A DNA stretch of 64,000 nucleotides from Streptomyces sp. ICBB 8177 (GTDB lineage: Bacteria > Actinomycetota > Actinomycetes > Streptomycetales > Streptomycetaceae): contig NZ_NSKH01000024.1 of assembly GCF_003144095.1 (NCBI RefSeq), positions 201,198 to 265,197 of the forward strand. Direction: 5' to 3'. The position numbers and the translations under genes are program-made. Below the pieces are notes generated by a model. It made no database searches. It was not told the origin of the DNA and saw only the letters and a program-made list of their open reading frames with translations. Below are positions 5,554-39,167 of the stretch, one piece after another. Each line of letters opens with the position of its first letter. Positions within the stretch are counted from its first letter, which is position 1.

Positions 5554-6051
5554 GCCGGGGTCTCCATGGCGACACGGAGGGCCGCGATGCCGCGGGACCC
5601 GTACGCCTTGACGGAGCCTACGGATATGCCCAGCGTCTCGGCCACCTGAGCCTCGGTCATGTCGGCGAAGTACCGCAGCACCAGCACCTCGCGCTGGCGC
5701 CGTTGCAGGCCGCGCATCGAGCGGATGAGCTGGTCGCGTTCCAGCTGCTCGTAGGCGCCCTCCTCGGCGCTGGCCATGTCCGGCATCGGCTTGGACAGCA
5801 GCTTCAGGCCCAGGATGCGGCGGCGCAGCGCGGAGCGGGAGAGGTTGACGACCGTCTGGCGCAGGTAGGCGAGGGTCTTCTCGGGCTCGCGGACCCGGCC
5901 GCGGGCGGAGTGCACCCGGATGAACGCCTCCTGGACGACGTCCTCGCAGGAGGCGGTGTCGTCCAGCAGCAGCGCGGCGAGGCCGAGCAGCGAACGGTAG
6001 TGGGCGCGGTAGGTCTCGGTGAGGTGGTCGACCGTGGTGCCCGCGGTCATC
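5550..6051 (-). CDS. ECF (sigma-70 family) RNA polymerase sigma factor
   Basis: Region 2 (YRAHYRSLLGLAALLL...DVVQEAFIRVH) and region 4 (REVLVLRYFADMTEAQVAETLGISVGSVKAYGSRG). Start chosen at MTAGTT; the ORF extends further upstream. Confidence 0.75.
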
Positions 6052-22842: not shown

Positions 22843-24054
22843 CTACTCGTGCCGCAGTGCCTCGATCGGCCGCAGGCTCGCCGCCCGGTTGGCGGGGTAG
22901 CTGCCGAAGAACAGCCCGATCGCGACGGCGATGGCGAACGCGCCGACCACCGACTCCGGGATGACCACCGGCGTGATGCCCACGATCTTGAAGCGGGAGC
23001 CGAGCAGGCCCACGGCCACACCGAGTCCGCCGCCGATCAGCGACAGCAGCGTCGACTCGGCGAGGAACTGGCCGAGGATGACGCCCTTGGGCGCGCCGAT
23101 CGCCTTGCGGATGCCGATCTCACGGGTCCGTTCTGCGACGGTGACCAGCATGATGTTGGTGATGCCGATGCCGCCGACCAGCAGCGAGATCGCGGCGACC
23201 GCGCCCAGCAGCACGGTGAACGTCTGGTTGGTGGACGCCTGCGTGGTCAGCAGCGACGCCTGGTTGCTGACCTGGAAGTCCAGCGCGGTCGGGTCGCTGA
23301 TGCCGTGCTGGCCCATCAGCACCGTGGTGATCTCGTTCTGCGCGGCGGTCGTCGCGGAGGCCGACTTCGCCTCGACCAGGATCTGGTTGAGCGAACCGAA
23401 GCCGGTGAACGCGTTCTGCACGGTCGGCAGCGGCGCGACCACCACGTCGTCCGGGTCCTGGAACCCGGTGCCGCCCTTGGTCTCCAGGACGCCGACCACG
23501 GTGAACGGCGTGCCGCCGAGCACCATCTGCTTGCCGACCGGGTTCACCGTGCCGAACACGTCGGTGGCCGTGGTCGAGCCGATCACCGCGACCTTGCGGG
23601 AGCCCAGCACGTCGTCGTCGCTGAAGTAGTCGCCCTTGGCGACCTTGCTGTTGGACGCCTCGAAGTAGGCCGGGTAGGTGCCGACGACCTGGCTGACGGT
23701 GTGCGAGGTGCCCTGGTAGACCGCGGTCTGCGAGGTGGTGACCTCGGGCGCGACCGACTCGATGTCCGGCGCCTGCTTCGGGTCGGCCAGCGCCTTGGCG
23801 TCGTCCACGGTCAGCGGCTTGATCGTGGTCGCGGTGGACTGGCCGCCGAAGCCGCCGCCGGAGGTGACGGTCAGCGAGTTGGTGCCCAGCTTCTCGATGG
23901 AGTCCTTGACCGCCTGCGACGAGCCGTTGCCCACCGCCAGCAGCAGGATGACCGCGGCGACACCGATGAGCACCCCGAGCATGGTCAGCGCGGAACGCAC
24001 CTTGTTCGCCGCCAGGCCCGCCACGGCGAACCGCAGCGTCTGCAACGGATTCAT
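22843..24054 (-). CDS. ABC transporter permease (FtsX/MacB family)
   Basis: N-terminal TM helix, large periplasmic domain, and C-terminal FtsX 3-TM bundle (TREIGIRKAIGA). Start overlaps the ATPase stop (ATGA). Confidence 0.85.
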   Translation of the reverse strand: MNPLQTLRFAVAGLAANKVRSALTMLGVLIGVAAVILLLAVGNGSSQAVKDSIEKLGTNSLTVTSGGGFGGQSTATTIKPLTVDDAKALADPKQAPDIESVAPEVTTSQTAVYQGTSHTVSQVVGTYPAYFEASNSKVAKGDYFSDDDVLGSRKVAVIGSTTATDVFGTVNPVGKQMVLGGTPFTVVGVLETKGGTGFQDPDDVVVAPLPTVQNAFTGFGSLNQILVEAKSASATTAAQNEITTVLMGQHGISDPTALDFQVSNQASLLTTQASTNQTFTVLLGAVAAISLLVGGIGITNIMLVTVAERTREIGIRKAIGAPKGVILGQFLAESTLLSLIGGGLGVAVGLLGSRFKIVGITPVVIPESVVGAFAIAVAIGLFFGSYPANRAASLRPIEALRHE

Positions 24055-24935
24055 CGCCCGCCTCCCGGGGCCGCCGCGAAGGCGGCGGGATCACGCAGCG
24101 CGGGCGGTGGTCCGTCCACCGGCGCCTGCCGTACGTCGTCCACCACGCGGCCGTCGACCAGCCGCAGCACCCGCTTGGCGTGCCGGGCCACCTCGTCCTC
24201 GTGGGTGATCAACACGACCGTGCGGCCGGACGCGTTGAGCCGGTCGATGATGGCCAGCACCTCCTCGGTGCTGCGGCTGTCGAGGTTGCCGGTCGGCTCG
24301 TCGGCCAGCAGCATCGCGGGCGCGGTGACCAGGGCGCGGGCGACCGCCACGCGCTGCTGCTGGCCGCCGGACAGCTCGTTGGGGCGGTGGTCCATCCGGT
24401 CGCCGAGACCCACCAGGGTCAGCGCCGCCTCGGCCCGCCGCCGGCGTTCCGCGGACCTCACCCCGGCGTACGCCAGCGGCAGTTCGACCTGGTCGAGCGC
24501 GGGAGTGCGCGGGATCAGGTTGAACGACTGGAAGACGAAGCCGATCTTTCGGTTGCGCACCAGCGACAACTGGTGCTCGTCCAGCCCGCCGACGTCGATG
24601 CCGTCCAGCAGGTAGCGGCCGTGGCTGGGCACGTCGAGACAGCCGAGGATGTTCATCAGCGTCGACTTGCCCGAGCCCGAACTTCCCATCACCGCCACGA
24701 AGTCGCCCTGCTCGACGGACAGGTCGACGCCGAGCGGCTCGCCGCCCTCCGGGTCGTCCGGGCCCTTCAGGGCGTGGACGGACGCCTCGCCGTGCCCGTA
24801 CACCTTGCGCAGCGCGCGTACCTCGATGACCGGCGGCGGGCCCCAAGGGCCTTGCGCGTCAAGGGAGTCGGGGACAGAGGCGGGCGCGGGCCCCGCGTCC
24901 GCGCCCCGGCGGCGCTGCCGCGCGGACCCGATCAT
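24051..24935 (-). CDS. ABC transporter ATP-binding protein (MacB-type)
   Basis: Walker A GSSGSGKST, signature LSGGQQQRVAVARAL, Walker B LLADEPTGNLD. Start overlaps the adaptor stop (ATGA). Has an approximately 9-aa insertion before the first conserved strand. Confidence 0.85.
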   Translation of the reverse strand: MIGSARQRRRGADAGPAPASVPDSLDAQGPWGPPPVIEVRALRKVYGHGEASVHALKGPDDPEGGEPLGVDLSVEQGDFVAVMGSSGSGKSTLMNILGCLDVPSHGRYLLDGIDVGGLDEHQLSLVRNRKIGFVFQSFNLIPRTPALDQVELPLAYAGVRSAERRRRAEAALTLVGLGDRMDHRPNELSGGQQQRVAVARALVTAPAMLLADEPTGNLDSRSTEEVLAIIDRLNASGRTVVLITHEDEVARHAKRVLRLVDGRVVDDVRQAPVDGPPPALRDPAAFAAAPGGGR

Positions 24936-26367
24936 CCGCGGCCCCCGCCACCGGACCGGATCCCGCCGCCGGTGCGCCCGCCACCGAAGCCGCCACGGCT
25001 GCCGCCACCGCCCAGACCGCCGGGGAACGAGCCGCTGGGGAAGCCGTTGCTGCCGGTCGAGGCGACCGAGGCGATCTGCACCGTCTCGCCCTGCGTCAGG
25101 CCGCTGGTGATCTGGTCGTCGGTGTCGCCCTCGACGCCCACGGTGACGTCGACCCGCTGCGTGGAGCCGTCCGCCTTGACGACGGTCACCGTGCGGTCGG
25201 TGCCGGTGCCGCTGACCGCGGCGGTCGGCACGTACAGGGCGCCGGACGCCTCGCCGGTGACGACCTGGACGGTCGCGCTCATGCCGGTGCGCAGGTTCGC
25301 GGTGGAGCTGGTGATGGCCAGGGTGGCCGCGTACTGGACGGCGCTGCCGGAGCTGCTGCCGCCCCCGCCGCCTCCCGAGCCGGAACCGCTGCTGACCGGG
25401 AGCGAACTGACCGACACCATTTTCGCGTTGAGGGTGGTGCCGGACTCCGCGTTGAGGCTGACGGTGGCCGCCTGGCCGGGCTTGACCTTGAGCGCGTCGG
25501 TCTCGGAGAAGTCCGCGGTGACCTCCATGCCGGTCGGGTTGGTGATGACCACGAAGCCGGTGGGGGCGGAGGACGAGGAGGAGCTGGAGGACGAGCCGCT
25601 GCTCGCGTTGCCGCTGCCTGAGCCGCTGGAGCCGCTTGAGCCGCTTGAGCCCGACACCGTGTCGCCGACCTTGCCGGCCACCGAGGCGACGGTGCCGCCG
25701 ACCGGGGCCGTGAGCACGGTGCCGTCCACGGCGCGCTGCGCGGCGTCCACCGCGTCCTGCGCCTGGGTGACGCTCGCCTCGGCCTGCGCGAGTTGCGCGG
25801 GGTCGACGGTGGTGGTCAAGGCGGCGTCGGTGGCGGTGGCGGTCGTGGTGCCGCTCGTCAGGTAGGAGGAGTCACGGGCCCCGCCGCCGTTCGAGCCACC
25901 GTTGGAGCCGCCGTTCGAACCACCGGAACCCGTTGAACCGGATCCGGACCCGGAGGTGGTTGTGGTGCTCTCCCCCTCCTCGACCTTGGTCAGATTGGCC
26001 TGGGCGGCGGTGAGGTTGGCCTCGTCCTCGCTGAGCGTCTCGTTCGCGGAGGTCGGGTCGACCTTGGCGAGCGTCTCGCCCTTGGTGACCTTGTCGCCGG
26101 GCTTGACGTCGACCTCGGTGAGCGTGCCGCCCGTGGTGAAGTCGACGCCCGCGTCGGTGGGCGACGTCAGCGATCCGGAACCGGAGACCGTGGCCAGCAC
26201 GGTCCCCTTGGCAACGGTCGCGGTACGCGTGCTCGTGTGCGCGGAACCGCCGCCGCCGCTGTTCACCGCCGCGTAGGAACCGGCGGCGGCAGCGAGGAGC
26301 ACCACGCCGAGCACCGAGTTCATCAGGACGGCCCTGCGCCGCCGTGGGAGCACCTTCATGCCGCGCA
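24932..26367 (-). CDS. Efflux periplasmic adaptor (HlyD/MacA family) with long Gly/Ser-rich regions
   Basis: Signal/TM segment, biotinyl-lipoyl-like and beta-barrel segments (VKPGDKVTKGETLAKVDP..., GTVLTAPVGGTV). Start chosen at MRGMKVLP; the ORF track extends further. Confidence 0.75.
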
Positions 26368-26621
26368 TCCTGACCGCCCGCTCCAGTGAACCCCTGGGAG
26401 CGATCTGGGAGTTCGCTGGCAGCGCGAGCGCGTGCGTGCGACACGAGGGCGGGGGCGGAACGGTTGATACAGGGAGCAACCCCACTCGACGAACCGGCGC
26501 CGCCCCGGCACGATTCCCAGGAAACTCCCAGGTCGTTCCCAGGGGTCCTCCATGCCGGTGCGGTTCAGTCGTGCGGAATCCGTTCCCGAGCCGTTTTCGA
26601 ACCCACGAGGAGACCGCGCCC

Positions 26622-27224
26622 ATGACGACCCGGACCATCCCGACGGCGCTGCGGGCCGCCGCGTCCGTAGCCGTCATCGCCTCGGGCGCGCTGCTGCTGA
26701 CCGCGTGCTCGTCGTCCTCGTCCTCCTCCGCGTCGTCGAACGCGTCGGCGTCGGCGTCCTCCTCCTCAGCGGGCGGGCGTCAGCAGATGGCCGCGTACAC
26801 GCAGTGCCTGTCGCAGCACGGTGTCAAGATCACCCGGCCCTCGGGCCGCCCGAGCGCGCGGCCGAGCGGCGGCTTCCGCCACGGTGGCGGTGGCGGCGGC
26901 GGGTTCGGCGGCTTCGGCTTCGGCGGCGGGGCGTCGGCGAACCCGGCGATGCAGAAGGCCGCGCAGGCCTGCGCGAGTCTGCGTCCGCAGTTCAAGGGCG
27001 GCGGCGGCAACAGTGCCTACGCGACGGCGTTCAAGGCGTTCACGGGGTGCCTGAAGGACCACGGCGTCAACCTCCCGTCCGCCTCCTCCGGCACGATGGG
27101 CGGCGGCACGCGCGGCCTCAACACCTCGGACCCGAAGACCGCGGCGGCCTACAAGACCTGCAAGCCCCTCCTCCCCCAGCGGGGCCCCGGCAACCCGACG
27201 GCTAGCGCAACCCCGTCGGCGTAG
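26622..27224 (+). CDS. Lipoprotein (Cys-containing repeats, Gly-rich)
   Basis: Lipobox LLLTAC after a signal peptide. Repeated QCLSQHGV / GCLKDHGV motifs. Confidence 0.6.
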   Translation: MTTRTIPTALRAAASVAVIASGALLLTACSSSSSSSASSNASASASSSSAGGRQQMAAYTQCLSQHGVKITRPSGRPSARPSGGFRHGGGGGGGFGGFGFGGGASANPAMQKAAQACASLRPQFKGGGGNSAYATAFKAFTGCLKDHGVNLPSASSGTMGGGTRGLNTSDPKTAAAYKTCKPLLPQRGPGNPTASATPSA

Positions 27225-27249
27225 CAGCCCGCCCCCTCGCCTTCCGCGA

Positions 27250-27333
27250 ATCAGTTGTCACCCCCTTGTCTCCGGCAACAACCTCAGGTTGACAATTCGT
27301 TGTCTCCGACAAGGGGGTGACAACTGATTCACG
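27250..27333. repeat. Long imperfect inverted repeat (about 25-bp arms) in the convergent intergenic region
   Basis: TGAATCAGTTGTCACCCCCTTGTC ... GACAAGGGGGTGACAACTGATTCA with a 35-nt spacer that has its own internal dyad symmetry. Confidence 0.75.
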
Positions 27334-27344
27334 GGGAACGAGGC

Positions 27345-27885
27345 GTGCCGCCGTCAGCTGCTCCGGATGTGGTGGAGCATCAGCAGGGCGGCGACGGCGT
27401 TGGCCGACCGGATCTCACCGCGGGTCACCAGGTCCGGCACGTCCTTGAGCGGCACCCACTCCCGGCGCTCCGACTCGAAGGCGTCCTCCGGGTCGCCGAC
27501 GTATTCGGCATCCTGGGCCCAGAAGACCTAGTGGCGGGCGTCGGTCAGCCCATGCTGCGGCTCGACCATCATCAACTCCCGCAACGGCCCCGGTCGCCAG
27601 CCCGTCTCCTCCAGCATCTCCCGCGCGGCGGCGTCCGCCGGCTCCTCCCCGTCCTCGACCACGCCGGCGGCCAGTTCGTAGCTCCACGTGCCGGTGATGA
27701 AGCGATGCCGCCACAGCAGGAGGACCTCGTCGGCGTCGTTGACGACGGTCGCCAGAGCCACCGGCCGCTGCCGGATGACGTAGTGGTCCAGGTGGCGGCC
27801 GTCAGGCAGTTCCACGTCAGCGAGGTTCACCCGAAGCCACGGGTTCTCGTACACGGTGTGCTCGCCGAGATTCGTCCACCGCACC
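27345..27885 (-). pseudogene. NUDIX hydrolase interrupted by an in-frame TAG (27528-27530)
   Basis: NUDIX box GVVEDGEEPADAAAREMLEETG upstream of the stop. The reading frame continues with homologous-looking sequence (VFWAQDAEYVGDP...VPLKDVPDLVTRGEIRSANAVAALLML) after the TAG. Confidence 0.65.
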
Positions 27886-27894
27886 GCGCGACCC

Positions 27895-28260
27895 TTAACG
27901 CGCCGACTTCTCGATTGCCTCGAAGATGTCCGCGTCGGTCTCCCTCTGCCACAGCGGGAGTTCTGGCCAGTCCGCCACGTAGCCCGGCTTCGGGTTTTCG
28001 AAGTGCTTGAACATCTGAGCGGTCCAGCAGGTGGCGACGAAGCGGCTCTTCTGCTCGCGGGACAGCCGGTCCGTCCTGGCGTCACTGACCTCGACGAACC
28101 GACGCACCTGCTCGTACACCGCTTGCGCCGCATCGCGTTCCCACTGCGGGGTGTCGTCCCACGGGGTCACGTATCCGGCCTTCGGCTCACCGGGAAAGTG
28201 CCGCCGCACGCCCTCGATCCAGGCCTCCCGGAACAGTCGTGCACCCTCGGTCTGCGACAT
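27895..28260 (-). CDS. Hypothetical protein
   Basis: High GC3. ATG with a GAGGTGG RBS (MSQTEGARLFREAWIEGV...). Directly upstream of, and co-oriented with, the NUDIX gene. Confidence 0.5.
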   Translation of the reverse strand: MSQTEGARLFREAWIEGVRRHFPGEPKAGYVTPWDDTPQWERDAAQAVYEQVRRFVEVSDARTDRLSREQKSRFVATCWTAQMFKHFENPKPGYVADWPELPLWQRETDADIFEAIEKSAR

Positions 28261-28285
28261 GCCCACCTCTTCCGTCACGGTGTCC

Positions 28286-29526
28286 TCAGCGAGGCGATCT
28301 CCGCCTCCAACTCGGCCAATCGCCGGTCCCGTTTGTGACGGGGCCGAACTCGGCGCACAGCTCTCGGAGTCTACGAGTCAGGTAGCCGGAAGACGAGGCG
28401 CGAGCGAGTTCGACGGCCTCCCGGCCATACGACACCGCTTGTTCCAGGTCGCACCGCTTCACGCCGACGGCGCGAGGTCTGTCAACACAGCACCCCTTCT
28501 GCGATATGACTGCCCAGCGGCCAGGGCAGTGTTCCCCAGAGCCAAACTGAGCGTCGTCTCCGCACTTTCCAAACGCTCTAGTCGCACGTACCTGGCACCG
28601 CGCTCCTCCGCGAGACGAGAGCCATCGAACCTGAGCCATCCGCCGTTGCTAACGACCGGAGTGAGGTCCCGGACCTTCTCCGCACGGTCCAACGCGTCTT
28701 CGCAGGCTCGAAGTTCGCCCATACCGGCGTACGCCTCCGCTTGGACCGACGCGACCCAATGACGGGTCGGGAGCGCGCTGTCCCCATGCTCAGCCAGCCT
28801 CTCAGCCACACCAAGCATCTGTGACGCCTGGCCATAGCGGTGCTCTGCCATGTCAACATAGGCATGCCGTACCAAGGCGCATGCCCACAAGTCATAGGCC
28901 CCGGCCTCCCTGCTGAGCGATGCTGCGAGGACGTAGGAGGCCGCGGCGTCGTCATAGCGGTTCGCGTCGAAGGCCACCTCACCGGCCAACTGGAGGAGGT
29001 CTGCCGCAGCGGTCATGAGCGGCGGAATGTTCCCACGGCCAGCGGTCATCGCCTCGTTGACCGCTACGAGTTGGTCGCGGGCGAACCGTGCGTACGGATT
29101 GCTTCGACCTCGCCAGTTGGTAGACCTGCCAGAGATGACTGTTCATCCGGCTGAATTCAGTGGGCGTCGCCCGTCGAACACCCGTAGCGAGGGCTTCGGT
29201 TTCTTCGGCGGGAAGAGCGGCAAGTGCTCCGCTGAGGGCGAGCGAGCGAAGAAACGCGGCGAATCATCTCGTCATGCTCTCCGGCATTCGGGCGAACTTC
29301 GGCTTCGTGCGTGGTTTCTGCCCCGTCTGCTGTTCGGGACGTCGACAGGAGTGCATCGAGTTCTTGGAGGCTGACGTCCAACGCGGCCGCCAAACGCCGT
29401 CGCTGCGGTGGTTGAGGGGCGATCCTCCCGGCCTCCCAGCGCCCGACCGTCGTACGGTCCACGCCGAGTAACTCGGCCAGCTTCTCCTGACTGTAGCCCA
29501 GCACCCTGCGCCTCTTCGCCAATCCC
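28286..29526 (-). pseudogene. XRE-family HTH regulator with C-terminal TPR-like domain, split across three frames (at least two frameshifts)
   Basis: HTH piece 29526-29157 (LGYSQEKLAELLGVDRTTVGRWEAG), middle TPR-like piece 29049-28459, and C-terminal piece 28639-28286, all on the minus strand but in different frames. Confidence 0.55.
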
Positions 29527-30006
29527 ATGGCCGAACCTTCCCACAACGCGAGGCTTTCGCAGACCGTGCGCGGGTCTGCGTCAAGTCTGCCGCACTGATG
29601 CCGTGGTTACCCACGTCTTCGCGCGCTTTCCTGATGCAGCGGAGGATGAGCACGGTGAGCCCGGGAGGAGTTGCCATGGCCACAGGAGATCCCGACCCAG
29701 AAGGCGAGTTGAACAGTTGTTCCCGAAGTCGAGAACGGCTCAGCGAACAGCGAGTCCTCATGACGTACAGAGTCTCTCGTGATTCCGGACGTACTTGGGA
29801 GCAGTCACCCAGGTGCTTGGGGACGACCACCTGCCGATCCTGGACAACCCACGTCGCTATCCACCCTGCGCGTGCCCACGTTGTTCAGGCGTGGCCGACG
29901 GCCCCGGTCGCGCAACGACAGTCTGGCCAGTTGCGGACCTGTAGGAGCGAGCCATCGTCTCCAGCGGGTCCAACCACACCGAAGGATCGAAACCAAAGGA
30001 GAAGCA

Positions 30007-30158
30007 TGCGAATCGCAGCGATCAGGCACATGGACACCAGCGGAGCGTTCGCGCAAGGCGACGAGGAGAAGGACAAGCTGCCGGGGCAGCCGTGGACGCC
30101 GCAGCCGCCCTCGCCGGACGGTGGTAGTCCTCAGGGTGACGGGAAGCACCGCAAGTGA
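30007..30158 (+). CDS. Small precursor-like peptide (50 aa) with a conserved Asp-Gly-rich C-terminus; candidate substrate of the downstream PIMT homolog
   Basis: ATG preceded by a perfect AAGGAG RBS at 5-nt spacing. Product is MRIAAIRHMDTSGAFAQGDEEKDKLPGQPWTPQPPSPDGGSPQGDGKHRK. Its stop TGA overlaps the GTG start of the next gene. A paralog is present at 34166. Confidence 0.7.
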
Positions 30159-31303
30159 CCGACACGGACACCGGCCGCCCCAGCGACGAGTTGGGGCGGT
30201 ACCTCCTTGATCGCGGTGACATGACATCGGACTGGGCCGTGCCTTTCGCCGCCGTGCCGCGTGCGGCGTTCCTGCCCGACCGGATGTGGGTCTGGGACAT
30301 GGAGACACAGGGGACTGAACTCCACGACAAGCAAGATGACTTGGCCGCTTGGACCCGTGCCGCCTACCGTGACGCGCCGATCGTCACCCAGTGGGACGAC
30401 GGCCGGCACGCCGGGTCCACGGCCGGGAGGCTCGCCACCAGCTCGGCGTCGATGCCCTCCGTGGTCCTGAGCATGCTGCGGGACCTCGACGTCGTGGACG
30501 GTGTGCGGGTACTGGAGATCGGCACCGGCACGGGCTGGAACGCGGGGCTCCTGTGTGCCCGCCGGGGCGAGGCGAACGTCGTCACCGTCGAGGTCGACGC
30601 CCAGGTGGCCGCCACCGCACGCACCGCGCTGGGCAGAGCCGGGCTGCGGCCCGCCGTCGTCTGCGGTGACGGCGCGGCCGGATACGGTGTCCGCGCACCG
30701 TACGACCGCGTGATCGCCACCGTGGGCGTGCGTAGCGTGCCGTACGCGTGGATCGAGCAGACCCGCCCCGGCGGAATCGTGCTCACCCCCTGGGGCACGC
30801 ACTACAGCAACCAGGAGGCCCTGGCCCGCCTCACGGTGGACGAGGACGGCACGGCGTCGGGTCCGTTCCTGCGGCCGGTCGAGTTCATGACCCTGCGCGG
30901 CCAGCGTCTCGACTGGGGGCGGTTCTCCGGCCACGTTCCGGAGGACTACGCGTCGATTCCTGCCGTGCGGAGAAGCTGCGTCACCTTGGCCGAACTGACC
31001 GGCACCGCCCAGCAGTTCGTGTGCGGGCTGCGGATGCACCGGTGCGCCCAGGTCGTCAACGGGCGCCGCGTCTGGCTCTTCGACATGGACTCGACGTCCT
31101 GGGTTCTGGCGGAGTTCCCGGAGGAAGACGGCCCACCGCTGGTGAGGCAGTTGGGGCCGCGACCCTTGTGGGACGAGTTGCTATGCGTCCTCGAATGGTG
31201 GAGACGGGGAGGCTCGCCGGGCCCCCGCCACTTCGGGCTGACGGTCACTCCCAACGGTCAGTCGGCATGGCTTCTCGACCGCGCCAACGCCTGGGTCGTG
31301 TGA
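30155..31303 (+). CDS. Protein-L-isoaspartate(D-aspartate) O-methyltransferase (PIMT/PCMT) family protein with an approximately 150-aa C-terminal extension
   Basis: VLEIGTGTGWNAGLL SAM motif I and overall PCMT-like N-terminal layout. GTGA overlap with the upstream peptide gene. The architecture resembles PIMT homologs found in RiPP clusters. Confidence 0.8.
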   Translation: MTDTDTGRPSDELGRYLLDRGDMTSDWAVPFAAVPRAAFLPDRMWVWDMETQGTELHDKQDDLAAWTRAAYRDAPIVTQWDDGRHAGSTAGRLATSSASMPSVVLSMLRDLDVVDGVRVLEIGTGTGWNAGLLCARRGEANVVTVEVDAQVAATARTALGRAGLRPAVVCGDGAAGYGVRAPYDRVIATVGVRSVPYAWIEQTRPGGIVLTPWGTHYSNQEALARLTVDEDGTASGPFLRPVEFMTLRGQRLDWGRFSGHVPEDYASIPAVRRSCVTLAELTGTAQQFVCGLRMHRCAQVVNGRRVWLFDMDSTSWVLAEFPEEDGPPLVRQLGPRPLWDELLCVLEWWRRGGSPGPRHFGLTVTPNGQSAWLLDRANAWVV

Positions 31304-32990: not shown

Positions 32991-33719
32991 TCAGTGGCGC
33001 TCGTGCCCCAGCCCGATCTCGTACGCGATCTCCAGCCGCACGTCCGGCACCGTGATGTCGGCCGTCTCGACCGGGCGGCCGTCCGCCGCGTAGTACGTGC
33101 GCTCGATGTGCAGCAGCAGGTCACCGGGGGCGATGCCGAGCAGCGCCGCCTCCGCGGTGGTGGCCCGTCCGGGACGCGGCACCTCCACGGCCCTGGTGAT
33201 CTCGATGCCGATGCTGCGCATCCGCTCGACCACGCCCTTGCCCTTCATCGGGCCCAGCTCCGGCAGCACGATCGGGGTGCGGCCGGTGATCGCCATCGGC
33301 TCCCAGCTCTCCGCCAGGTGGACCGGCTGACGGTCGGTGAGGAACTCGTACCGCGTCCGTACGCACATGTCCCCCTCGGCGATGTCCAGCCTGCGGGCGA
33401 TGCGGGCCGGGGCCGGGGTGTGCGCCTCGCTGTGGAACTCGCGTGCGGCGCCGCCGCCCGGGGTGGCCTCACCACGCGAACGCACCATCCGGTGCCGCTC
33501 GCGCGGCTCGCGCACGTACGTGCCGGAGCCCGCCCGGCCCTCCAGCAGGCCCTCGACGATGAGCAGGTCGACCGCGCGCTGCGTCACGTTCCGCCCGACG
33601 CCGTACTCCTCGGCGAGGCGGGCGCGTGACGGCAGGCGTTCGCCGGTGGCCCACTCCCCGCCCCTGACCCGGGCGCGCAGGGCCTCGGCGACCTCGAGGT
33701 AGGGGGCCTCGCGTGCCAT
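32991..33719 (-). CDS. GntR/HutC-family transcriptional regulator (UTRA effector domain)
   Basis: N-terminal GntR wHTH (LPSRARLAEEYGVGRNVTQRAVDLLIVEGLLEGRAGSGTYV) plus a C-terminal UTRA-like domain. Confidence 0.85.
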   Translation of the reverse strand: MAREAPYLEVAEALRARVRGGEWATGERLPSRARLAEEYGVGRNVTQRAVDLLIVEGLLEGRAGSGTYVREPRERHRMVRSRGEATPGGGAAREFHSEAHTPAPARIARRLDIAEGDMCVRTRYEFLTDRQPVHLAESWEPMAITGRTPIVLPELGPMKGKGVVERMRSIGIEITRAVEVPRPGRATTAEAALLGIAPGDLLLHIERTYYAADGRPVETADITVPDVRLEIAYEIGLGHERH

Positions 33720-33810
33720 CCGCCGTCTCCCGACTGCCGTGTGCCGTCTACCGGTTGGTGCGCTCTTGGGTGCCTTTGCTCCGTTGACAAAGCTACTGCA
33801 TCAGGTACAA

Positions 33811-33824
33811 GCTGCTTAAGCAGC
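33811..33824. promoter_or_regulatory. Perfect 14-bp palindrome GCTGCTTAAGCAGC in the GntR divergent promoter region (candidate operator)
   Basis: Self-complementary sequence in an AT-richer stretch between the GntR start (33719) and the downstream operon. A TTGACA hexamer lies at 33784-33789. Confidence 0.5.
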
Positions 33825-33866
33825 ATTACCATGTGTGATCACCGGCCGCCTCACCTGGGGACATTC

Positions 33867-34166
33867 GTGCGTTCACCCGAAGCCCGCGCCCGCGAGGTCG
33901 CCGACCGGCTGGCGGCCGCGACCGGCACCGAGGCCCGCACCCTCGCGACCCCGGAGGCCATCCGGGTCGAGGTCTACGTCCCCGACGAGATCCCGGAGCC
34001 GCTGCACACCGCCCTCGTCGACGCCCTGCGCCGCGCCGACCGCTACGGGCACGCGCGCACGGCGGACGCGGCGGTGGCGTGGGCGGAGATCACCCGTACC
34101 GGCCGGGGCGACGTGCCCGGCGAAGAGCACGACCACCCACCCCAGCCCCAGGAGGGAACGCCATGA
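33867..34166 (+). CDS. Hypothetical protein (about 99 aa), translationally coupled to peptide copy 2
   Basis: Very high GC3. GTG with a GGGGA RBS; an alternative ATG lies at 33831. Stop TGA overlaps the ATG of the peptide gene (ATGA). Confidence 0.5.
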   Translation: MRSPEARAREVADRLAAATGTEARTLATPEAIRVEVYVPDEIPEPLHTALVDALRRADRYGHARTADAAVAWAEITRTGRGDVPGEEHDHPPQPQEGTP

Positions 34167-34297
34167 GGATCGAGATCCTGACGCACGCAGGCGGCGACGG
34201 CGGCGACAGCCTCCCCGGCCAGCCCTGGCAGCCCCCGCAGGAGCCGCCGAGCCCGGACGGCGGCAGCCCCGAGGGGGACGGGAAGCACCGCAGGTGA
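34166..34297 (+). CDS. Small precursor-like peptide, copy 2 (43 aa), paralog of the 30007 gene
   Basis: GGAGG RBS. Product is MRIEILTHAGGDGGDSLPGQPWQPPQEPPSPDGGSPEGDGKHRR. The C-terminal 27 aa are nearly identical to copy 1. Stop TGA overlaps a GTG start (GTGA), as in copy 1. Confidence 0.65.
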   Translation, partial: RIEILTHAGGDGGDSLPGQPWQPPQEPPSPDGGSPEGDGKHRR

Positions 34298-34689
34298 CCG
34301 TGCGCGACACGGCGCGAGCGCGGCCCACCCGGCAGGAGCTGGGCCGCGCCCTGCGCGCCTCGGGTGCGCTGGGTCAGGCCTGGGTGCCCGCTTTCGAAGC
34401 GGTCGACCGGGCCGCGTTCCTGCCCGACGTGATGTGGCCGTACGACATGGCGACCGGCGCCAGTGCCACGGTGGACCGGCGCACCGATCCGGACGCCTGG
34501 TTCGCCTGCGCCGACCGCGATGTACCGATCACCACGCAGTGGGACGACGGCGCGCACGAAGGACCGGCGCCGGGGAGGGTCGCCACCTCGTCGTCGTCCA
34601 TGCCGTCGGTCGTCTTCCGGATGCTGGACGACCTCGCGCTGGTCCTCGCCGTCGGAACGCCTTCACAAGAAGTTCGCGGGGAACACTGA
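34294..34689 (+). pseudogene. Truncated paralog of the PIMT-family methyltransferase (N-terminal about 130 aa only)
   Basis: ...VPAFEAVDRAAFLPDVMWPYDM...ITTQWDDGAHEGPAPGRVATSSSSMPSVVFRMLDDL aligns to residues of about 25-115 of the 30155 protein, then ends in a stop before the SAM-binding motif. A lower-GC junction follows (ATCCACACATATGTTTGTCTGCATGATTTCGG). Confidence 0.65.
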
Positions 34690-34787
34690 AGATCCACACA
34701 TATGTTTGTCTGCATGATTTCGGTCTCAGCCCCCGGTCTTTCCCGATTCATTGCCCTGACGCGCCGGGGGTTCCCCGGGTCAGACGT

Positions 34788-36671
34788 TCACGCGCCGGGG
34801 AAGACCAGCGACTGCTCGCCGCCCAGGGTGGCCGGGGTGGTGTCCTGGAAGAGGGAGGCCGAGCCGTCCGGCCAGCGGGCGAGGATGTCGTCGGCGGAGG
34901 CGTTCGCCGTGTAGGCGCCGACCGTCATCGCCGCCGCGGACTTCCAGCGGGCGTTGGCGTTCAGCAGGCGGTGCTCGGTGCCCAGGCGGGACTGCGAGGT
35001 GGCCGGGTAGACGTCGAGTTCGCCGTCGATCCAGCGCACGGCCACGTCCCAGTTGGCGCCCGCGCCGCCGAAGTGGCCGGCCGCCACCGACACCGCGTAC
35101 TTCCACGTGGCGTTGGGGGCCAGCAGCCGGTGCTTGGTGCCGAAGGTGTTCGCGCCCACGCCGGTGTAGACGTCGACCTCGCCGTTGCTCCAGCGCACCA
35201 GCAGGTCGCTGACGTAACTGCCGTTGTGGAACTGGCCACCCGTGATCTGCGCGGCGTTCTTCCACGCCGATCCCGGCTTCGCCATCACGACCTCGTGGCC
35301 GAGCCCGGACGAGCCGAGATCGGGGAAGAGGCTGACGTGCCCGTCCGCCCAGCGCACCATCAGGTCGTACTGACCGCTGCCCGCGAAGTCGCCGGCCGTG
35401 ATGGTGGCCGCCTGCTTCCACGCGGCGTTCGGCGCCTTGAGCTGCTTCTCCGGCAGGAAGCCGCCGTTGCCGTCGCCGGGGTAGAGGGTGACCTCGCCGT
35501 CGTCCCACACCACGACCAGGTCGCCGTGGTGGTCACCGGTGAAGTCGCCGGACGCCAGCAGCTTGGCGTGCTTCCACAGCGCCGCCCCGCCGGGCAGCTT
35601 GGGCTGGAGGCCGGTGTACGGGGGCAGCGGCGTGGGCGGCTGCTGCTGTCCCGCGACCGCCCGGGCGAGCAGCGCGGCGGCGTCGGAGCCGAAGTACGTG
35701 CCGTAGCTGATGTAGTTGACGTCCTGGTCGTTGCCGCCGCCGTTGTAGCCGCCGAGGTCGCCGATGACGTGGCCGGAGGTGGCGCCGTCCGCGTAGTCGG
35801 TGATCCAGGGACTGCCGGAGACGCCGCCGTAGTAGCCGCCGCAGGTCATCGACATCTGCCGGAAGCCGGGCAACTGGGTCGTCGGCACCGTGCACTTGAT
35901 GGCCGAGCCGTTCGGGTTGTGTCCGTAGGCGGGGTAGCCGACGACGGTCACGTGCGGGTTGTCGTACGTCGTGGGCTCGGTGAAGGTCAGCCCGCCGCCG
36001 ACCGCGTCCTGCACCTGCTGCCCCTTCTGGTTGGGCGCCAGCGTGGCGAACGCCGTGTCCAGGTCGGAGGTGGGGCCCTTGGTGGTGTGCGAGCCCGGAT
36101 CGGGGGTGTAGCGCGGGTCGATGTAGACCTGCTGCACGGGGAAGATGCCGTACGGCTGGCCGGCGGGCGCGGCGCCCATCACGAAGTCCGGCACGAAGAC
36201 GTAGTTGGCGTGGATGCCCAGGCCGCAGTGGGCGGCGGTGAGGATGACGTCGCGGGCCGGGGTGTCGATGACGCTGCCGGTGCAGGTCCAGTCGGTGCCG
36301 GTGGGGCCGTCGGAGCCGAAGAAGGTGCCGACCAGCGGCGTGCCGCGGAAGAACGTGCCCTGCGGGACGCCCGCCCCCTTCGGCGTCATCGGCCGCATGC
36401 CGCCGCCGGTCCGCGCGTCCAGCGGGCGGGCGTTCGCCATCCGCTGGGCCGTCCAGTACGAGGCGGCGGCGCGCGCCTTGGCCCCGGGGTCGGCGGCGGG
36501 ACGCCTTGAAGCAGCGGCACCGGAGGCGTGGTGGGCGGCGGACGGGGCGGCCGGTTCGTGGTGGGCCGGAGAGGCGGCGGAGGCCTGCGCCCCGGTGAGT
36601 CCGAGGACCGCCGCACAGACGGCGGCCAGCGCCGCCAGACGCGACGAGCGTCGCGAGTACCGCGAAGACAA
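34788..36671 (-). CDS. Secreted trypsin-like (S1 family) serine protease fused to a C-terminal FG-GAP/VCBS repeat domain
   Basis: Signal peptide, TAAHCG histidine motif, GDSGGP-like region (GGVSGSPW), then repeated FxGDxxGDG FG-GAP-type units. TTG start. Confidence 0.7.
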   Translation of the reverse strand: MSSRYSRRSSRLAALAAVCAAVLGLTGAQASAASPAHHEPAAPSAAHHASGAAASRRPAADPGAKARAAASYWTAQRMANARPLDARTGGGMRPMTPKGAGVPQGTFFRGTPLVGTFFGSDGPTGTDWTCTGSVIDTPARDVILTAAHCGLGIHANYVFVPDFVMGAAPAGQPYGIFPVQQVYIDPRYTPDPGSHTTKGPTSDLDTAFATLAPNQKGQQVQDAVGGGLTFTEPTTYDNPHVTVVGYPAYGHNPNGSAIKCTVPTTQLPGFRQMSMTCGGYYGGVSGSPWITDYADGATSGHVIGDLGGYNGGGNDQDVNYISYGTYFGSDAAALLARAVAGQQQPPTPLPPYTGLQPKLPGGAALWKHAKLLASGDFTGDHHGDLVVVWDDGEVTLYPGDGNGGFLPEKQLKAPNAAWKQAATITAGDFAGSGQYDLMVRWADGHVSLFPDLGSSGLGHEVVMAKPGSAWKNAAQITGGQFHNGSYVSDLLVRWSNGEVDVYTGVGANTFGTKHRLLAPNATWKYAVSVAAGHFGGAGANWDVAVRWIDGELDVYPATSQSRLGTEHRLLNANARWKSAAAMTVGAYTANASADDILARWPDGSASLFQDTTPATLGGEQSLVFPGA

Positions 36672-37052
36672 AGGAGTGTTCCCCCCAAGCGATGAAACGA
36701 TCCGCGCGGCAGTGGTCCCGCGCCGTCACATACGCCTGCCGCGGCCGTGGTGTTCAACCGGCGGAGGCGGTGCCTCCGCCGCTGTCACGCAGCGGACATC
36801 AGCGGCACAACGGCACCACACCGACATCTCACAGCCACTGAACAGGCAAATGTGATCGCCGGATTGTCGCACAAGGAAGTAGAGTGCCCAGGCTCGAACA
36901 CTCTCTTCACACACCGGACACGTTCTCCGCGTCGTCGTGGTGTCCGGCCGTGCGCGACAGCACCACACCACGCGCGCGGGTGCGCACCCCACCTCGCACC
37001 GTCCTCGTCGAAGACAGTCGCACCGTCCTTTTCAGAACAGAAGGGCACTTAC

Positions 37053-39167
37053 TTGCGCTCGACCGAAAGTCCCACGGGGGGACCCGGCGGCAGACGCGGA
37101 CGGCGGGTGGCCTCGGCCGCGACCGCCGCGCTGTCCACCGCCGCACTCGTCTCCGGCGGCCTGCTCGCTGCGACCCCGTCGCTCGCCGCCGCACCGGCCG
37201 CGCCCACCACGGCCCCGCACACCGCGACCGCGCACACCACGGCTCCGGCCGCGCGCACCGCGGCCACCCGCGCCGCGGCCCCGGCCGCCACGCACTCCAC
37301 CCCGGTCACGCACTCCGCCGTGGCCGTCAGGCACCTGTGCGCGCAGCCGACCAGGCCGGGCGAGATGGCCTGCCTCGCCGAGGCACGCACCGACGTCGTC
37401 CAGCGGATGAGCGTCGCCCCGAACGCCACGCCGTCCGGCTACGGCCCGGCGGACCTGCACAGCGCCTACAACCTGCCGTCCGGCAGCGCCGGCGCGGGCC
37501 AGACCGTGGCCATCGTGGACGCCCAGGACGACCCCAACGCCGAGGCCGACCTCGCCGCGTACCGCGCGCAGTACGGACTGCCGGCCTGCACCACCGCCGA
37601 CGGCTGCTTCCACAAGGTGGACCAGAACGGCGGCACCAGCTACCCGGCCGCCGACGCCGGCTGGGCCGGCGAGATCTCGCTCGACCTCGACATGGTCAGC
37701 GCGACCTGCCCGCAGTGCCACATCCTGCTGGTCGAGGCCAACTCGCCGTCGATGGACGACCTGGGCACCGCGGTCGACCGCGCCGTGGCCATGGGCGCCA
37801 AGTACGTCTCCAACTCCTACGGCGGCTCCGAGGACCCCAGCGAGGTCAAGGCCGACCTGGCGTACTTCGACCACCCGGGCGTGGCCATCACCGCCAGCGC
37901 CGGCGACACCGCCTACGGCGCGCAGTACCCGGCCGCCTCCCCGTTCGTCACCTCCGTGGGCGGCACGGCGCTCAGCCACGCCGCCAACTCCCGCGGCTGG
38001 AGCGAGTCGGTGTGGTCGACCAGCGCCGCCGAGGGCACCGGCTCCGGCTGCTCGGCGGACGAGGCCAAGCCGTCCTGGCAGAAGGACACCGGCTGCTCGC
38101 ACCGGACCATCTCGGACGTCTCCGCCGTCGCCGACCCGGCCACCGGCGTCGCCGTCTACGACACGTACCAGGCCTCCGGCTGGGACGTCTACGGCGGCAC
38201 CAGCGCCTCGTCGCCGATCATCGCCTCGGTCTACGCGCTGGCGGGCACGCCGGCCGCCGGCACCGTCCCGGCTTCGTACCCGTACGCGGACACCGCGGCC
38301 CTCAACGACGTGACCTCCGGCTCCAACGGCTCCTGCGGCGGCAGTTACCTGTGCACCGCGGGCACCGGCTACGACGGCCCGACCGGCCTCGGCACCCCCA
38401 ACGGCACCGCGGCCTTCACCGCCCCGGCGGGCAACGGCACCACCCTGGCCTCCGGCCAGGAGCTGCTGCCGGGCCAGAGCCTGAGCAACGCCGCGATGAC
38501 GCTGACCATGCAGACCGACGGCAACCTCGTCGCGTACCTGAAGACCGGCGCCAGCGGCAACGGCCCCGCGGTGTGGTCCAGCCACACCAACGGCAACACC
38601 GGCGCGTACGCGGTCATGCAGATGGACGGCAACTTCGTCGTCTACAAGAAGGGCGGCGGCCCCGCGAGCGGCGGCGCGCTGTGGTCCAGCGGCTCCTACG
38701 GCCACGGCGGCGCGTACGCCTCGCTCCAGTCGGACGGCAACCTCGTCGTCTACAAGGGCAGCAGCGCGCTGTGGTCGAGCGGCACCTGGCGCCGGTCGGC
38801 GACCATCGCCTCCAACACCAAGATGACCGCCGGCTGGTGGACGCAGAGCACCACCACCCGTCTGGTCGTGCAGGCGGACGGCAACCTGGTGCTGTACCGC
38901 AACAGTGACGGCGTGGCGCTGTGGTCGGCCAAGTCCAGCGGCAACGCGGGCGCGTACGCCTACATGCAGAGCGACGGCAACTTCGTCGTCTACAAGTCCA
39001 CCGGCGCCCCCGGCAAGGGCGGCGCGCTGTGGTCCAGCGGCACCTACGGCAACACCGGCGCGTACGCGATCGCCCAGAACGACGGCAACCTCGTCGTGTA
39101 CAAGAAGGGCGGCAGCGCCACCGCGGGCGGCCAGCTGTGGTCCACCGGCACCTCCGGCAAGGTCTGA
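37053..39167 (+). CDS. Secreted S53/sedolisin-like peptidase fused to C-terminal bulb-type (B-) lectin repeats
   Basis: Tat/Sec-like signal ([14 protein letters not shown]). Peptidase core with SGDTAYG...GGTSASSP. Six QxDGNxVxY lectin repeats ([27 protein letters not shown]...). TTG start is tentative. Confidence 0.65.

What the first reader, a model, noticed from the sequence alone, without database searches (positions are those of the whole stretch)
33811..34689. Second, partly decayed copy of the peptide/methyltransferase module, with an extra coupled upstream ORF and a palindromic operator
Seen in sequence: at 34166 a second RBS-supported peptide gene (MRIEILTHAGGDGGDSLPGQPWQPPQEPPSPDGGSPEGDGKHRR) is again terminated by a TGA overlapping a GTG start (GTGA). 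The downstream ORF is homologous to the N-terminal about 130 aa of the 30155 methyltransferase but stops at 34689 before the SAM-binding motif, and is followed by an atypically AT-rich junction. The two peptides share MRI..I.H at the N-terminus and a nearly identical 27-aa C-terminus, differing only at Q/E, T/Q and K/R positions. That pattern points to selection on the core rather than neutral drift. Copy 2 additionally has a 99-aa ORF (33867-34166) coupled by an ATGA overlap. It is preceded by a perfect palindrome GCTGCTTAAGCAGC lying between this operon and a divergent GntR/HutC regulator. The paralogy firms up both peptide ORFs as real genes and suggests the module is mobile or duplicating.
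Basis: seen in the sequence. Interest (0 to 1): 0.75.

Follow-up and report, generated by a model that had tools for sequence, protein, structure and literature searches.

The report
Broken second imiditide operon under GntR control
This is the remnant of a second, regulator-controlled gene cluster for a known class of small modified peptides (imiditides, also called type I pamtides); a roughly 2.85-kb deletion in this strain cut off its modifying enzyme, so it is mostly ordinary.

Summary
At 34163-34297 lies an intact 44-aa Pro/Gly/Asp-rich precursor gene. It is coupled upstream to a 99-aa ORF (ATGA) and downstream to a 131-aa ORF (GTGA) that matches only the N-terminus of the methyltransferase at 30155. 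Both modules are imiditide / type I pamtide clusters, a RiPP class described in 2023.

The sister species Streptantibioticus parmotrematis carries both copies at the same positions. Its copy 2 enzyme is intact (395 aa) and is followed by TetR and FAD-monooxygenase genes. The window (Streptomyces sp. ICBB 8177) has lost about 2.85 kb, with the breakpoint at 34638. What remains lacks the SAM motif and the C-terminal recognition domain, so it is a dead enzyme.

The two copies are old paralogues, not a recent duplication: core dS is about 1.3 and the enzymes are 49-54% identical.

The 99-aa ORF belongs to an uncharacterised small-protein family that sits divergent from a GntR/HutC regulator in 24 of 24 distinct loci, with or without a methyltransferase. 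The palindrome is part of a dyad whose symmetry is kept by compensatory changes across genera, so it is a likely operator.

Whether the orphan precursor is modified in trans by the copy 1 enzyme is inference. Interest is modest.

The parts
32991..33719 (-). GntR/HutC-family transcriptional regulator (242 aa), divergent from the operon
   Evidence: Pfam GntR 1.4e-15 and UTRA 4.9e-17. A homologue lies divergent from the small ORF in every distinct locus examined, 24 of 24.
33784..33842 (.). Conserved intergenic promoter/operator block. It holds an invariant TTGACA (33784-33789), a near-invariant TGCATCAGGT and a dyad at 33808-33827 that contains the perfect palindrome GCTGCTTAAGCAGC (33811-33824).
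   Evidence: The block is conserved across Streptantibioticus, Streptomyces and Kitasatospora loci. The dyad keeps one centre of symmetry. 82% of cells are complementary against 17-35% when the partner is slid, 3 pairs carry changes on both sides, and 0 of 500 shuffles reach the observed covariation. Binding by the GntR protein is inferred, not shown.
33867..34166 (+). Small protein of unknown function (99 aa; conserved core of about 76 aa plus a variable acidic/Pro tail); first gene of the operon
   Evidence: 100% identical to an NCBI hypothetical protein of Streptomyces sp. ICBB 8177. 176 representative clusters match the profile at E<=1e-3. The AlphaFold model has pLDDT 84 and an alpha-beta-beta-alpha-beta-beta layout. 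Core GC3 is 0.95. No Pfam or NCBIfam family and no significant fold match.
34163..34297 (+). Imiditide / type I pamtide precursor peptide, copy 2 (44 aa), intact
   Evidence: ATGA overlap with the small ORF and an AGGAGGG ribosome-binding site. GC3 is 0.96. Composition is G 20.5%, P 18.2%, D 9.1%, against 17.3/16.8/10.2% for published type I pamtide precursors (PMC10787088). The core PGQPW..PPSPDGGSPEGDGKHRK is conserved in more than 11 homologues.
34294..34638 (+). N-terminal 115 codons of the copy 2 aspartyl O-methyltransferase (PAMT / PIMT homologue): a pseudogene remnant
   Evidence: 93-95% aa identity to the first 115 residues of the intact 395-aa S. parmotrematis enzyme. TIGR04188 positions 3-105 of 363, E 1.8e-14. 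No GxGxG and no WxxxGxP motif.
34639..34787 (.). 149-bp junction filler that replaces about 2.85 kb. It supplies the last 16 sense codons and the stop of the 131-aa ORF (to 34689) and holds a GC-rich hairpin just past the stop of the convergent trypsin-like gene.
   Evidence: No match in any related locus or elsewhere in the window. GC 0.59. GC3 of its codons is 0.53. Window 34788 onwards resumes homology with L001 at 9649.
30006..30158 (+). Precursor peptide, copy 1 (50 aa), paralogue
   Evidence: The C-terminal 33 aa are identical in two S. parmotrematis strains.
30155..31303 (+). Intact PAMT, copy 1 (382 aa); the only complete enzyme of this kind found near the orphan precursor
   Evidence: Pfam PCMT 1.2e-25. 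TIGR04188 3.1e-88 over positions 8-362 of 363. GTGTG at residue 123 and WRRGGSP at residue 349.

Best explanation
The segment is the remnant of a GntR/HutC-controlled imiditide (type I pamtide) operon.

Ancestral layout. A divergent GntR/UTRA regulator and a shared promoter/operator region drive three translationally coupled genes: a small alpha/beta protein, a 44-aa Pro/Gly/Asp-rich precursor, and a roughly 395-aa peptide aspartyl O-methyltransferase. In this RiPP class the enzyme methylates one Asp of the linear precursor using SAM. The methyl ester then cyclises spontaneously to an aspartimide, which can hydrolyse to isoAsp.

What happened in this strain. One deletion of about 2.85 kb removed everything after codon 115 of the enzyme, plus the downstream TetR and FAD-monooxygenase genes. 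The 131-aa product therefore lacks the SAM-binding motif, most of the Rossmann fold and the C-terminal substrate-recognition domain, and is catalytically dead.

What survives. The regulator, operator, small protein and precursor are intact, so the precursor is probably still expressed as an orphan. If it is modified at all, the old paralogous enzyme 4 kb upstream (30155-31303) must do it. That enzyme's own precursor has an almost identical C-terminal region.

Shown here: the anatomy, homology, deletion, age of the paralogy, and conservation of the dyad.
Inferred: repression by GntR at the dyad, expression of the orphan precursor, and trans-modification (about 40% likely in my estimate).
For: - Class assignment. 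Precursor length and composition and the overlapping two-gene layout match imiditides / type I pamtides (10.1101/2023.04.07.536058; PMC10787088; PMC13001092). The copy 1 enzyme carries PCMT, GxGxG and WxxxGxP.
- Deletion. Window 33002-34642 equals L001 5136-6794 at 90.7% identity. Homology resumes at window 34788 = L001 9649, and the breakpoint was read directly. L001 and L008 have an intact 395-aa enzyme followed by TetR and FAD genes. The same neighbours follow the related enzyme in L006, and neither gene has a match anywhere in the window.
- Intact enzymes elsewhere. All other GntR-linked loci have enzymes of 392-400 aa that form one clade with the window fragment.
- Recent loss. The fragment has omega 0.24 and no stops.
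- Loss of function. Removing only 50 C-terminal residues of NmaM abolishes both binding and modification (10.1101/2023.04.07.536058, section 10).
- Operator.
- Trans-modification plausibility. The last 14 residues are PDGGSPQGDGKHRK against PDGGSPEGDGKHRR. The C-terminal residues are required for SpaM and NmaM activity.
Against: - No expression or mass-spectrometry data exist for this strain.
- The copy 1 enzyme is only 49-54% identical to copy 2-type enzymes, so cross-recognition is uncertain.
- Peptide 2 differs from its orthologue by 3 nonsynonymous and 0 synonymous changes. One is a terminal K to R seen in none of 14 relatives. This could mean constraint is already relaxed, though the numbers are too small to test.
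- No sigma-70 consensus promoter is called by the simple scan.
- The origin of the 149-bp filler is unexplained.
- The role of the small protein is unknown. It also occurs without any methyltransferase, so it may have nothing to do with the peptide.
Confidence: 0.8

Rival explanations
1. Recent duplication or transposition: the module is an actively mobile or duplicating cassette, and copy 2 is a decaying fresh duplicate of copy 1.
For: There are two copies within 4 kb. The same precursor-enzyme pair occurs in at least three different genomic contexts across species: GntR-linked, XRE/DUF397-linked (L024, L025), and the lower-GC stretch around copy 1. A resolvase fragment lies next to copy 1 in L001.
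Against: Synonymous sites between the copies are saturated: core dS 1.29, enzyme N-terminus dS 0.87 with 54% aa identity. The copy 2 enzyme clusters with other species' enzymes, not with copy 1. Both copies are at orthologous sites in S. parmotrematis. No repeats or transposase flank copy 2.
Confidence: 0.07
2. The 131-aa ORF is not a dead remnant but a retained stand-alone N-terminal-domain protein, for example a precursor-binding or decoy factor.
For: The reading frame is open, translationally coupled, has GC3 of 0.90 and omega of 0.24. Short N-terminal homologues are annotated in several other genomes.
Against: Those short homologues break at different positions and have unrelated, frameshift-like tails, so they form no consistent domain family. 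The low omega is expected if the deletion is recent. Substrate recognition in this class maps to the C-terminal domain, which is absent (PMC13001092). The tail of the ORF is non-coding filler.
Confidence: 0.05
3. Assembly artefact: the truncation at about 34638 is a mis-join, and the real genome has a full-length enzyme.
For: The composition changes abruptly at the junction.
Against: The junction lies inside a 463-kb contig. The filler is unique sequence rather than a repeat. Homology resumes exactly at the stop codon of the next syntenic gene. TetR and FAD homologues are absent from the whole 64-kb window.
Confidence: 0.03
4. The dyad acts as an RNA or DNA hairpin (leader structure or attenuator) rather than as a protein operator.
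For: Compensatory changes keep the complementarity, which a hairpin would also need.
Against: The dyad lies 18 bp downstream of an invariant TTGACA, where a -10 element and transcription start would fall, so much of it would not be transcribed. Its 4-nt centre, AT-rich arms and invariant CT/AG positions suit a dimeric helix-turn-helix site. It always accompanies a GntR gene. There is no Rfam match.
Confidence: 0.08

Closest known systems
Imiditides / type I pamtides (NmaA-NmaM of Nonomuraea maritima; SpaA-SpaM of Streptomyces sparsogenes)
   Same: - A short precursor of about 45 aa, rich in Gly, Pro and Asp with a basic C-terminus, sits immediately upstream of and overlaps a PIMT-like O-methyltransferase.
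- That enzyme carries GxGxG and a C-terminal WxxxGxP domain. This holds for copy 1 and for the orthologue of copy 2.
- No other RiPP enzyme was identified among the neighbouring ORFs scanned against Pfam.
   Different: - Here the copy 2 enzyme is truncated to 115 homologous residues.
- The published cluster definition has no other conserved genes. This clade instead adds a translationally coupled upstream small protein and a divergent GntR/HutC regulator with a conserved dyad.
- No chemistry has been tested for this precursor family.
HutC-subfamily GntR repressors with divergent, autoregulated targets (for example DasR, HutC, PhnF)
   Same: - An N-terminal GntR helix-turn-helix plus a C-terminal UTRA effector domain.
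- A dyad-symmetric site in the shared intergenic region that overlaps the target promoter.
   Different: - The dyad AAnCTnn-N4-nnAGnTT does not match the DasR or HutC boxes as I recall them. That comparison is from memory and was not tested.
- The effector is unknown.
- The constant target is an uncharacterised protein of about 80 aa.
Graspetide-, lasso- and lanthipeptide-associated PAMTs (TIGR04188 'ATP-grasp peptide maturase system methyltransferase')
   Same: This is the best NCBIfam match for both the copy 1 enzyme and the fragment. They share the same clade of RiPP-associated PIMT homologues.
   Different: The score is below the family cut-off (297 against 380 bits). No ATP-grasp, LanB/C or lasso cyclase was found in the neighbouring ORFs scanned.

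Membership tests
Imiditide / type I pamtide BGC | Precursor ORF of 30-75 aa with at least one Asp, on the same strand, within 500 bp upstream of the methyltransferase (Cao et al. 2023 mining rule) | tested here: met
   Peptide 2 is 44 aa with 4 Asp and overlaps the downstream ORF by 4 nt.
Imiditide / type I pamtide BGC | Precursor of about 45 aa, rich in Gly, Pro and Asp, with a conserved Asp near Pro/Gly and conserved charged termini (Lee et al. 2023) | tested here: met
   G 20.5%, P 18.2%, D 9.1%. SPDGG and GDGKHRK are invariant across 15 relatives.
Imiditide / type I pamtide BGC | PIMT homologue of 300-450 aa | tested here: not met
   The copy 2 ORF is 131 aa, of which 115 are homologous. 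The feature is met by copy 1 (382 aa) and by the orthologue in L001 (395 aa).
Imiditide / type I pamtide BGC | GxGxG SAM-binding motif in the enzyme | tested here: not met
   Absent from the fragment. GTGTG is present in copy 1 and in all intact relatives.
Imiditide / type I pamtide BGC | C-terminal extension with a WxxxGxP motif (substrate recognition) | tested here: not met
   Absent from the fragment. Present in copy 1 (WRRGGSP) and in the L001 copy 2 enzyme (WDAAGRP).
Imiditide / type I pamtide BGC | No primary RiPP enzyme of another class (ATP-grasp, LanB/C, lasso cyclase) nearby | tested here: met
   Pfam scans of the larger neighbouring ORFs between about 21.6 and 39.2 kb show none. They show MacB-type ABC, NUDIX, XRE, SPFH, GntR, trypsin-like and lectin domains, and some ORFs had no hit.
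Imiditide / type I pamtide BGC | Asp methylation followed by aspartimide or isoAsp on the precursor | not testable with these tools
   Needs mass spectrometry of the native or co-expressed peptide.
GntR family, HutC subfamily | N-terminal GntR winged helix-turn-helix plus C-terminal UTRA domain | tested here: met
   PF00392 1.4e-15 (residues 6-69) and PF07702 4.9e-17 (residues 94-222).
GntR family, HutC subfamily | Binds a dyad operator in its own or its target's promoter | tested here: inconclusive
   A conserved dyad with compensatory changes is present. Binding was not tested.

The most novel reading that the evidence does not exclude
A monophyletic subgroup of imiditide clusters is wired as a four-gene unit: GntR/HutC sensor, dyad operator, small alpha/beta protein, then precursor and methyltransferase. 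In this reading the uncharacterised small protein is a working part of the system, for example a co-regulator or anti-repressor of the GntR protein, or a handler of the precursor. In ICBB 8177 the orphaned precursor would then be serviced in trans by the distant paralogous enzyme, making a natural one-enzyme, two-precursor, regulator-gated imiditide system. That would give the first handle on when, and therefore why, bacteria make these peptides, whose biological function is still unknown.
Probability: 0.2. Interest if true: 0.55.

Novelty: new member of a known kind. Interest (0 to 1): 0.33.

Why it matters
Imiditides / type I pamtides have known chemistry but no known biological role or regulation; the 2026 review names this as the main gap.

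This locus and its relatives show that one clade of these clusters sits under a dedicated GntR/HutC regulator with a recognisable operator, always together with an unstudied small protein. That offers an experimental way in: find the effector, find the conditions, and test the small protein.

The truncated enzyme is also a natural experiment. It can show whether a precursor can be shared between paralogous methyltransferases. It cautions that genome-mining rules requiring an intact 300-450-aa enzyme will miss orphan precursors.

Beyond that, the finding is an ordinary strain-specific pseudogenisation within a known RiPP class.

Tried and rejected
- Domain fusions among longer family members were uninformative.
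- The afdb50 fold library was unavailable.
- Exact-sequence look-up of the copy 1 enzyme found nothing on record.
- The 149-bp filler has no match in the window or in any fetched locus. I found no evidence of an IS or MITE origin.
- The simple promoter and terminator scan found nothing in 33650-34850. There was no Rfam match.
- Palindrome rarity as evidence was rejected: perfect 14-bp palindromes are as common as chance predicts in this GC-rich window.
- The apparent 'VLAVGT' versus 'VLEIGT' match beyond the breakpoint was rejected as coincidence, because DNA homology to the orthologue ends at 34638.
- Searching the pamtide supplement for this precursor core found nothing. The stored file is cut, so this is inconclusive.
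- The Kitasatospora 113-132-aa ORF that follows the small ORF is not related to the methyltransferase.

Full report
**1. What is in the sequence**

The window is high-GC actinomycete DNA (GC 0.726). The 99-aa ORF, the 44-aa peptide and the 131-aa ORF are each 100% identical to hypothetical proteins of Streptomyces sp. ICBB 8177, on a 463-kb contig.

Reading 33000-35400 and listing ORFs confirms the layout:

- a GntR gene on the minus strand, 32991-33719;
- a 147-bp intergenic region that contains GCTGCTTAAGCAGC at 33811-33824;
- a 99-aa ORF, 33867-34166;
- a 44-aa ORF, 34163-34297, overlapping it by ATGA and preceded by AGGAGGG;
- a 131-aa ORF, 34294-34689, starting at a GTGA overlap.

Codon-position GC shows all three plus-strand ORFs are coding. 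GC3 is 0.95 for the small ORF core, 0.96 for the peptide and 0.90 for the enzyme fragment. The last 17 codons of the 131-aa ORF have GC3 of 0.53.

**2. Relation to the first module**

The 131-aa product aligns to residues 3-124 of the 382-aa protein at 30155-31303 (51% identity, E 4e-32).

That larger protein is a PIMT-like methyltransferase. It hits Pfam PCMT at 1.2e-25 and TIGR04188 at 3.1e-88 over the whole model. It carries GTGTG at residue 123 and WRRGGSP at residue 349. The fragment covers only model positions 3-105 of 363 and has neither motif.

The two peptides share LPGQPW...PPSPDGGSP(Q/E)GDGKHR(K/R), with a 2-residue indel. Between the two cores dN is 0.14 and dS is 1.29. The similarity is therefore maintained by purifying selection over a long time. 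It is not due to recent copying, gene conversion or composition.

**3. The class is known**

A precursor of about 45 aa, rich in Gly, Pro and Asp and directly upstream of such a methyltransferase, defines the imiditides (Cao et al., 10.1101/2023.04.07.536058). The same class is called type I pamtides (Lee et al., PMC10787088) and was reviewed in PMC13001092.

The enzyme methylates one Asp of the linear precursor. The ester cyclises to an aspartimide, which may hydrolyse to isoAsp. Recognition depends on the enzyme's C-terminal domain and on the charged C-terminus of the precursor.

Peptide 2 is 20.5% G, 18.2% P and 9.1% D, against published means of 17.3, 16.8 and 10.2%. Its core recurs in annotated peptides from S. 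achromogenes, S. misionensis, S. silvisoli and others.

**4. The truncation is a strain-specific deletion**

Streptantibioticus parmotrematis (L001, and a second strain L008) is syntenic with the window and carries both modules. Its gene order is: peptide 1, enzyme 1, SPFH gene, small gene, GntR, small ORF, peptide 2, an intact 395-aa enzyme, TetR, FAD-monooxygenase, trypsin-like protein.

BLASTN aligns window 33002-34642 with L001 5136-6794 at 90.7% identity, and window 34788-37436 with L001 9649-12318. At the left edge the sequences part after ...GACCTCGCGC (34638). At the right edge homology resumes exactly at the stop codon of the trypsin-like gene.

So about 2.85 kb present in the sister species is replaced by 149 bp of lower-GC sequence, which has no match anywhere I could search.

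TetR and FAD genes also follow the related enzyme in a metagenomic locus (L006) and have no homologue anywhere in the window. Every other GntR-linked locus has a 392-400-aa enzyme. The window state is therefore derived.

The surviving 115 codons have no stops and an omega of 0.24 against the orthologue, which suggests a recent loss. Deleting only 50 C-terminal residues of NmaM abolishes binding and catalysis. A product that lacks the SAM motif, the fold and the C-terminal domain is dead by established knowledge.

**5. Age of the paralogy**

Enzyme 1 is 49-54% identical to the copy 2-type enzymes. Those enzymes are 71-78% identical to each other and 56-58% identical to the two-gene enzymes of S. 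achromogenes and S. misionensis. Copy 2 is thus closer to other species' enzymes than to copy 1.

Copy 1 lies in a lower-GC stretch (0.60-0.69 over 27.2-30.4 kb). Its flanks differ between the two species. It is also more diverged between them (dS 0.36-0.47) than the neighbouring genes (dS 0.09-0.21).

The pair has clearly moved between contexts over evolutionary time. Nothing indicates recent duplication or mobility of copy 2.

**6. The extra ORF and the regulator**

The 99-aa protein has a conserved core of about 76 aa, with invariant ADRYGH and WAE motifs, and a variable tail. A profile search finds 176 representative clusters at E<=1e-3. AlphaFold gives a confident alpha-beta-beta-alpha-beta-beta model (pLDDT 84). 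No family, fold or fusion gives it a function.

In all 24 distinct loci examined it lies divergent from a GntR/UTRA gene. Downstream of it:

- a precursor plus methyltransferase follow in the window, L001/L008, L004/L009, L006/L007 and L023;
- a different coupled ORF of 113-132 aa follows in Kitasatospora;
- an unrelated 103-aa ORF follows in L026;
- neither a methyltransferase nor the Kitasatospora ORF follows in L002/L010 and L005.

The small protein is therefore the regulator's constant partner, and the peptide-enzyme pair appears to have been captured behind it once; the GntR-linked enzymes are monophyletic in the tree. Its omega is fairly high (0.3-0.8), so it evolves fast.

**7. The palindrome**

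On its own it is not significant. Comparatively it is.

All loci share TTGACA, then (A)nCTAnTGCATCAGGT, then a dyad with the same centre. The arms read:

- GCTGC/GCAGC in the window;
- CTAC/GTAG in L004, L006 and L023;
- GCTGA/TCAGC in L005;
- GAATCTAA/TTAGATTC in Kitasatospora.

In a 14-sequence alignment 82% of arm cells are complementary, against 17-35% when the partner is slid by one to three columns. Three pairs carry changes on both sides, and 0 of 500 shuffles reach the observed covariation. The sequences are related and represent only a few independent events, so these numbers are supportive, not probabilities.

The position, just downstream of an invariant -35-like hexamer, suits a repressor operator. 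Binding by the GntR protein is inferred.

**8. How it most likely works now**

The regulator, operator, small protein and precursor are intact and nearly identical to those of the sister species, so the operon is probably still transcribed. It would yield the small protein, the unmodifiable precursor and a dead enzyme stub.

The only candidate modifier is enzyme 1. Its cognate precursor differs from peptide 2 in the last 14 residues only at Q/E and the final K/R. I rate trans-modification at about 40%.

A hint of relaxed constraint comes from the 3 nonsynonymous and 0 synonymous differences from the orthologue. One is a terminal K to R found in none of 14 relatives. The numbers are too small to test.

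**9. Verdict**

The object is a degenerate member of a known RiPP class. Its modestly new aspect is the conserved GntR / small-protein / operator context, which could help address the unknown biology of imiditides.

Noticed in passing
window 27200-30400: Copy 1 and its upstream XRE-HTH (29157-29546, minus strand) and TPR-like (28459-29049, minus strand) genes lie in a lower-GC stretch (0.60-0.69 against 0.726). The flanks of copy 1 differ from S. parmotrematis, where a resolvase fragment lies upstream. Its dS between the two species (0.36-0.47) is 2-4 times that of neighbouring genes. This may mean a separate history or horizontal acquisition of copy 1.
   Followed up: partly
L003 6243-6641; L011-L022 about 5150-5640: In Kitasatospora the small ORF is followed by a coupled, conserved ORF of 113-132 aa with no Pfam or NCBIfam match, in place of the precursor and methyltransferase. 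In L003 the cassette lies in a housekeeping gene neighbourhood (leuC/leuD, an HU-like gene, gpsA, ddl).
   Followed up: partly
P0162, P0165, P0170, P0173: Several other Streptomyces and Kitasatospora genomes annotate short N-terminal fragments of this methyltransferase family, with unrelated frameshift-like tails at different break points. This suggests that pseudogenisation of these enzymes is recurrent.
   Followed up: partly
L001 1849-3381: One S. parmotrematis strain carries an alcohol-dehydrogenase gene and a MarR gene inserted between enzyme 1 and the SPFH gene. Both are absent from the window and from strain Ptm05 (L008).
   Followed up: no
window 22843-26677 (minus strand): A MacB-type ABC exporter set (MacB_PCD/FtsX permease, ABC ATPase, HlyD-like adaptor) lies a few kb upstream of copy 1. 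Whether it exports the peptides is unknown.
   Followed up: no
window 34788-36671 (minus strand) and 36747-39167 (plus strand): A 627-aa secreted trypsin-like protein with FG-GAP repeats and an 806-aa protein with B-lectin repeats flank the deletion. Both are syntenic with S. parmotrematis.
   Followed up: no
window 34295-34297 region (last codon of peptide 2, 34292-34294): The C-terminal residue of peptide 2 is Arg in this strain but Lys in all 14 relatives examined, including both copy 1 peptides.
   Followed up: partly
L006 5314-7308; L001 7641-9672; L023 6449-7030: A convergent TetR gene lies downstream of the GntR-linked methyltransferase in three lineages. In L001/L008 and L006 it is followed by a FAD-monooxygenase, and those TetR genes are homologous (72% aa identity). 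The L023 TetR gave no match to the L001 TetR in the homology search. These genes may belong to the ancestral cluster or may only reflect synteny.
   Followed up: partly
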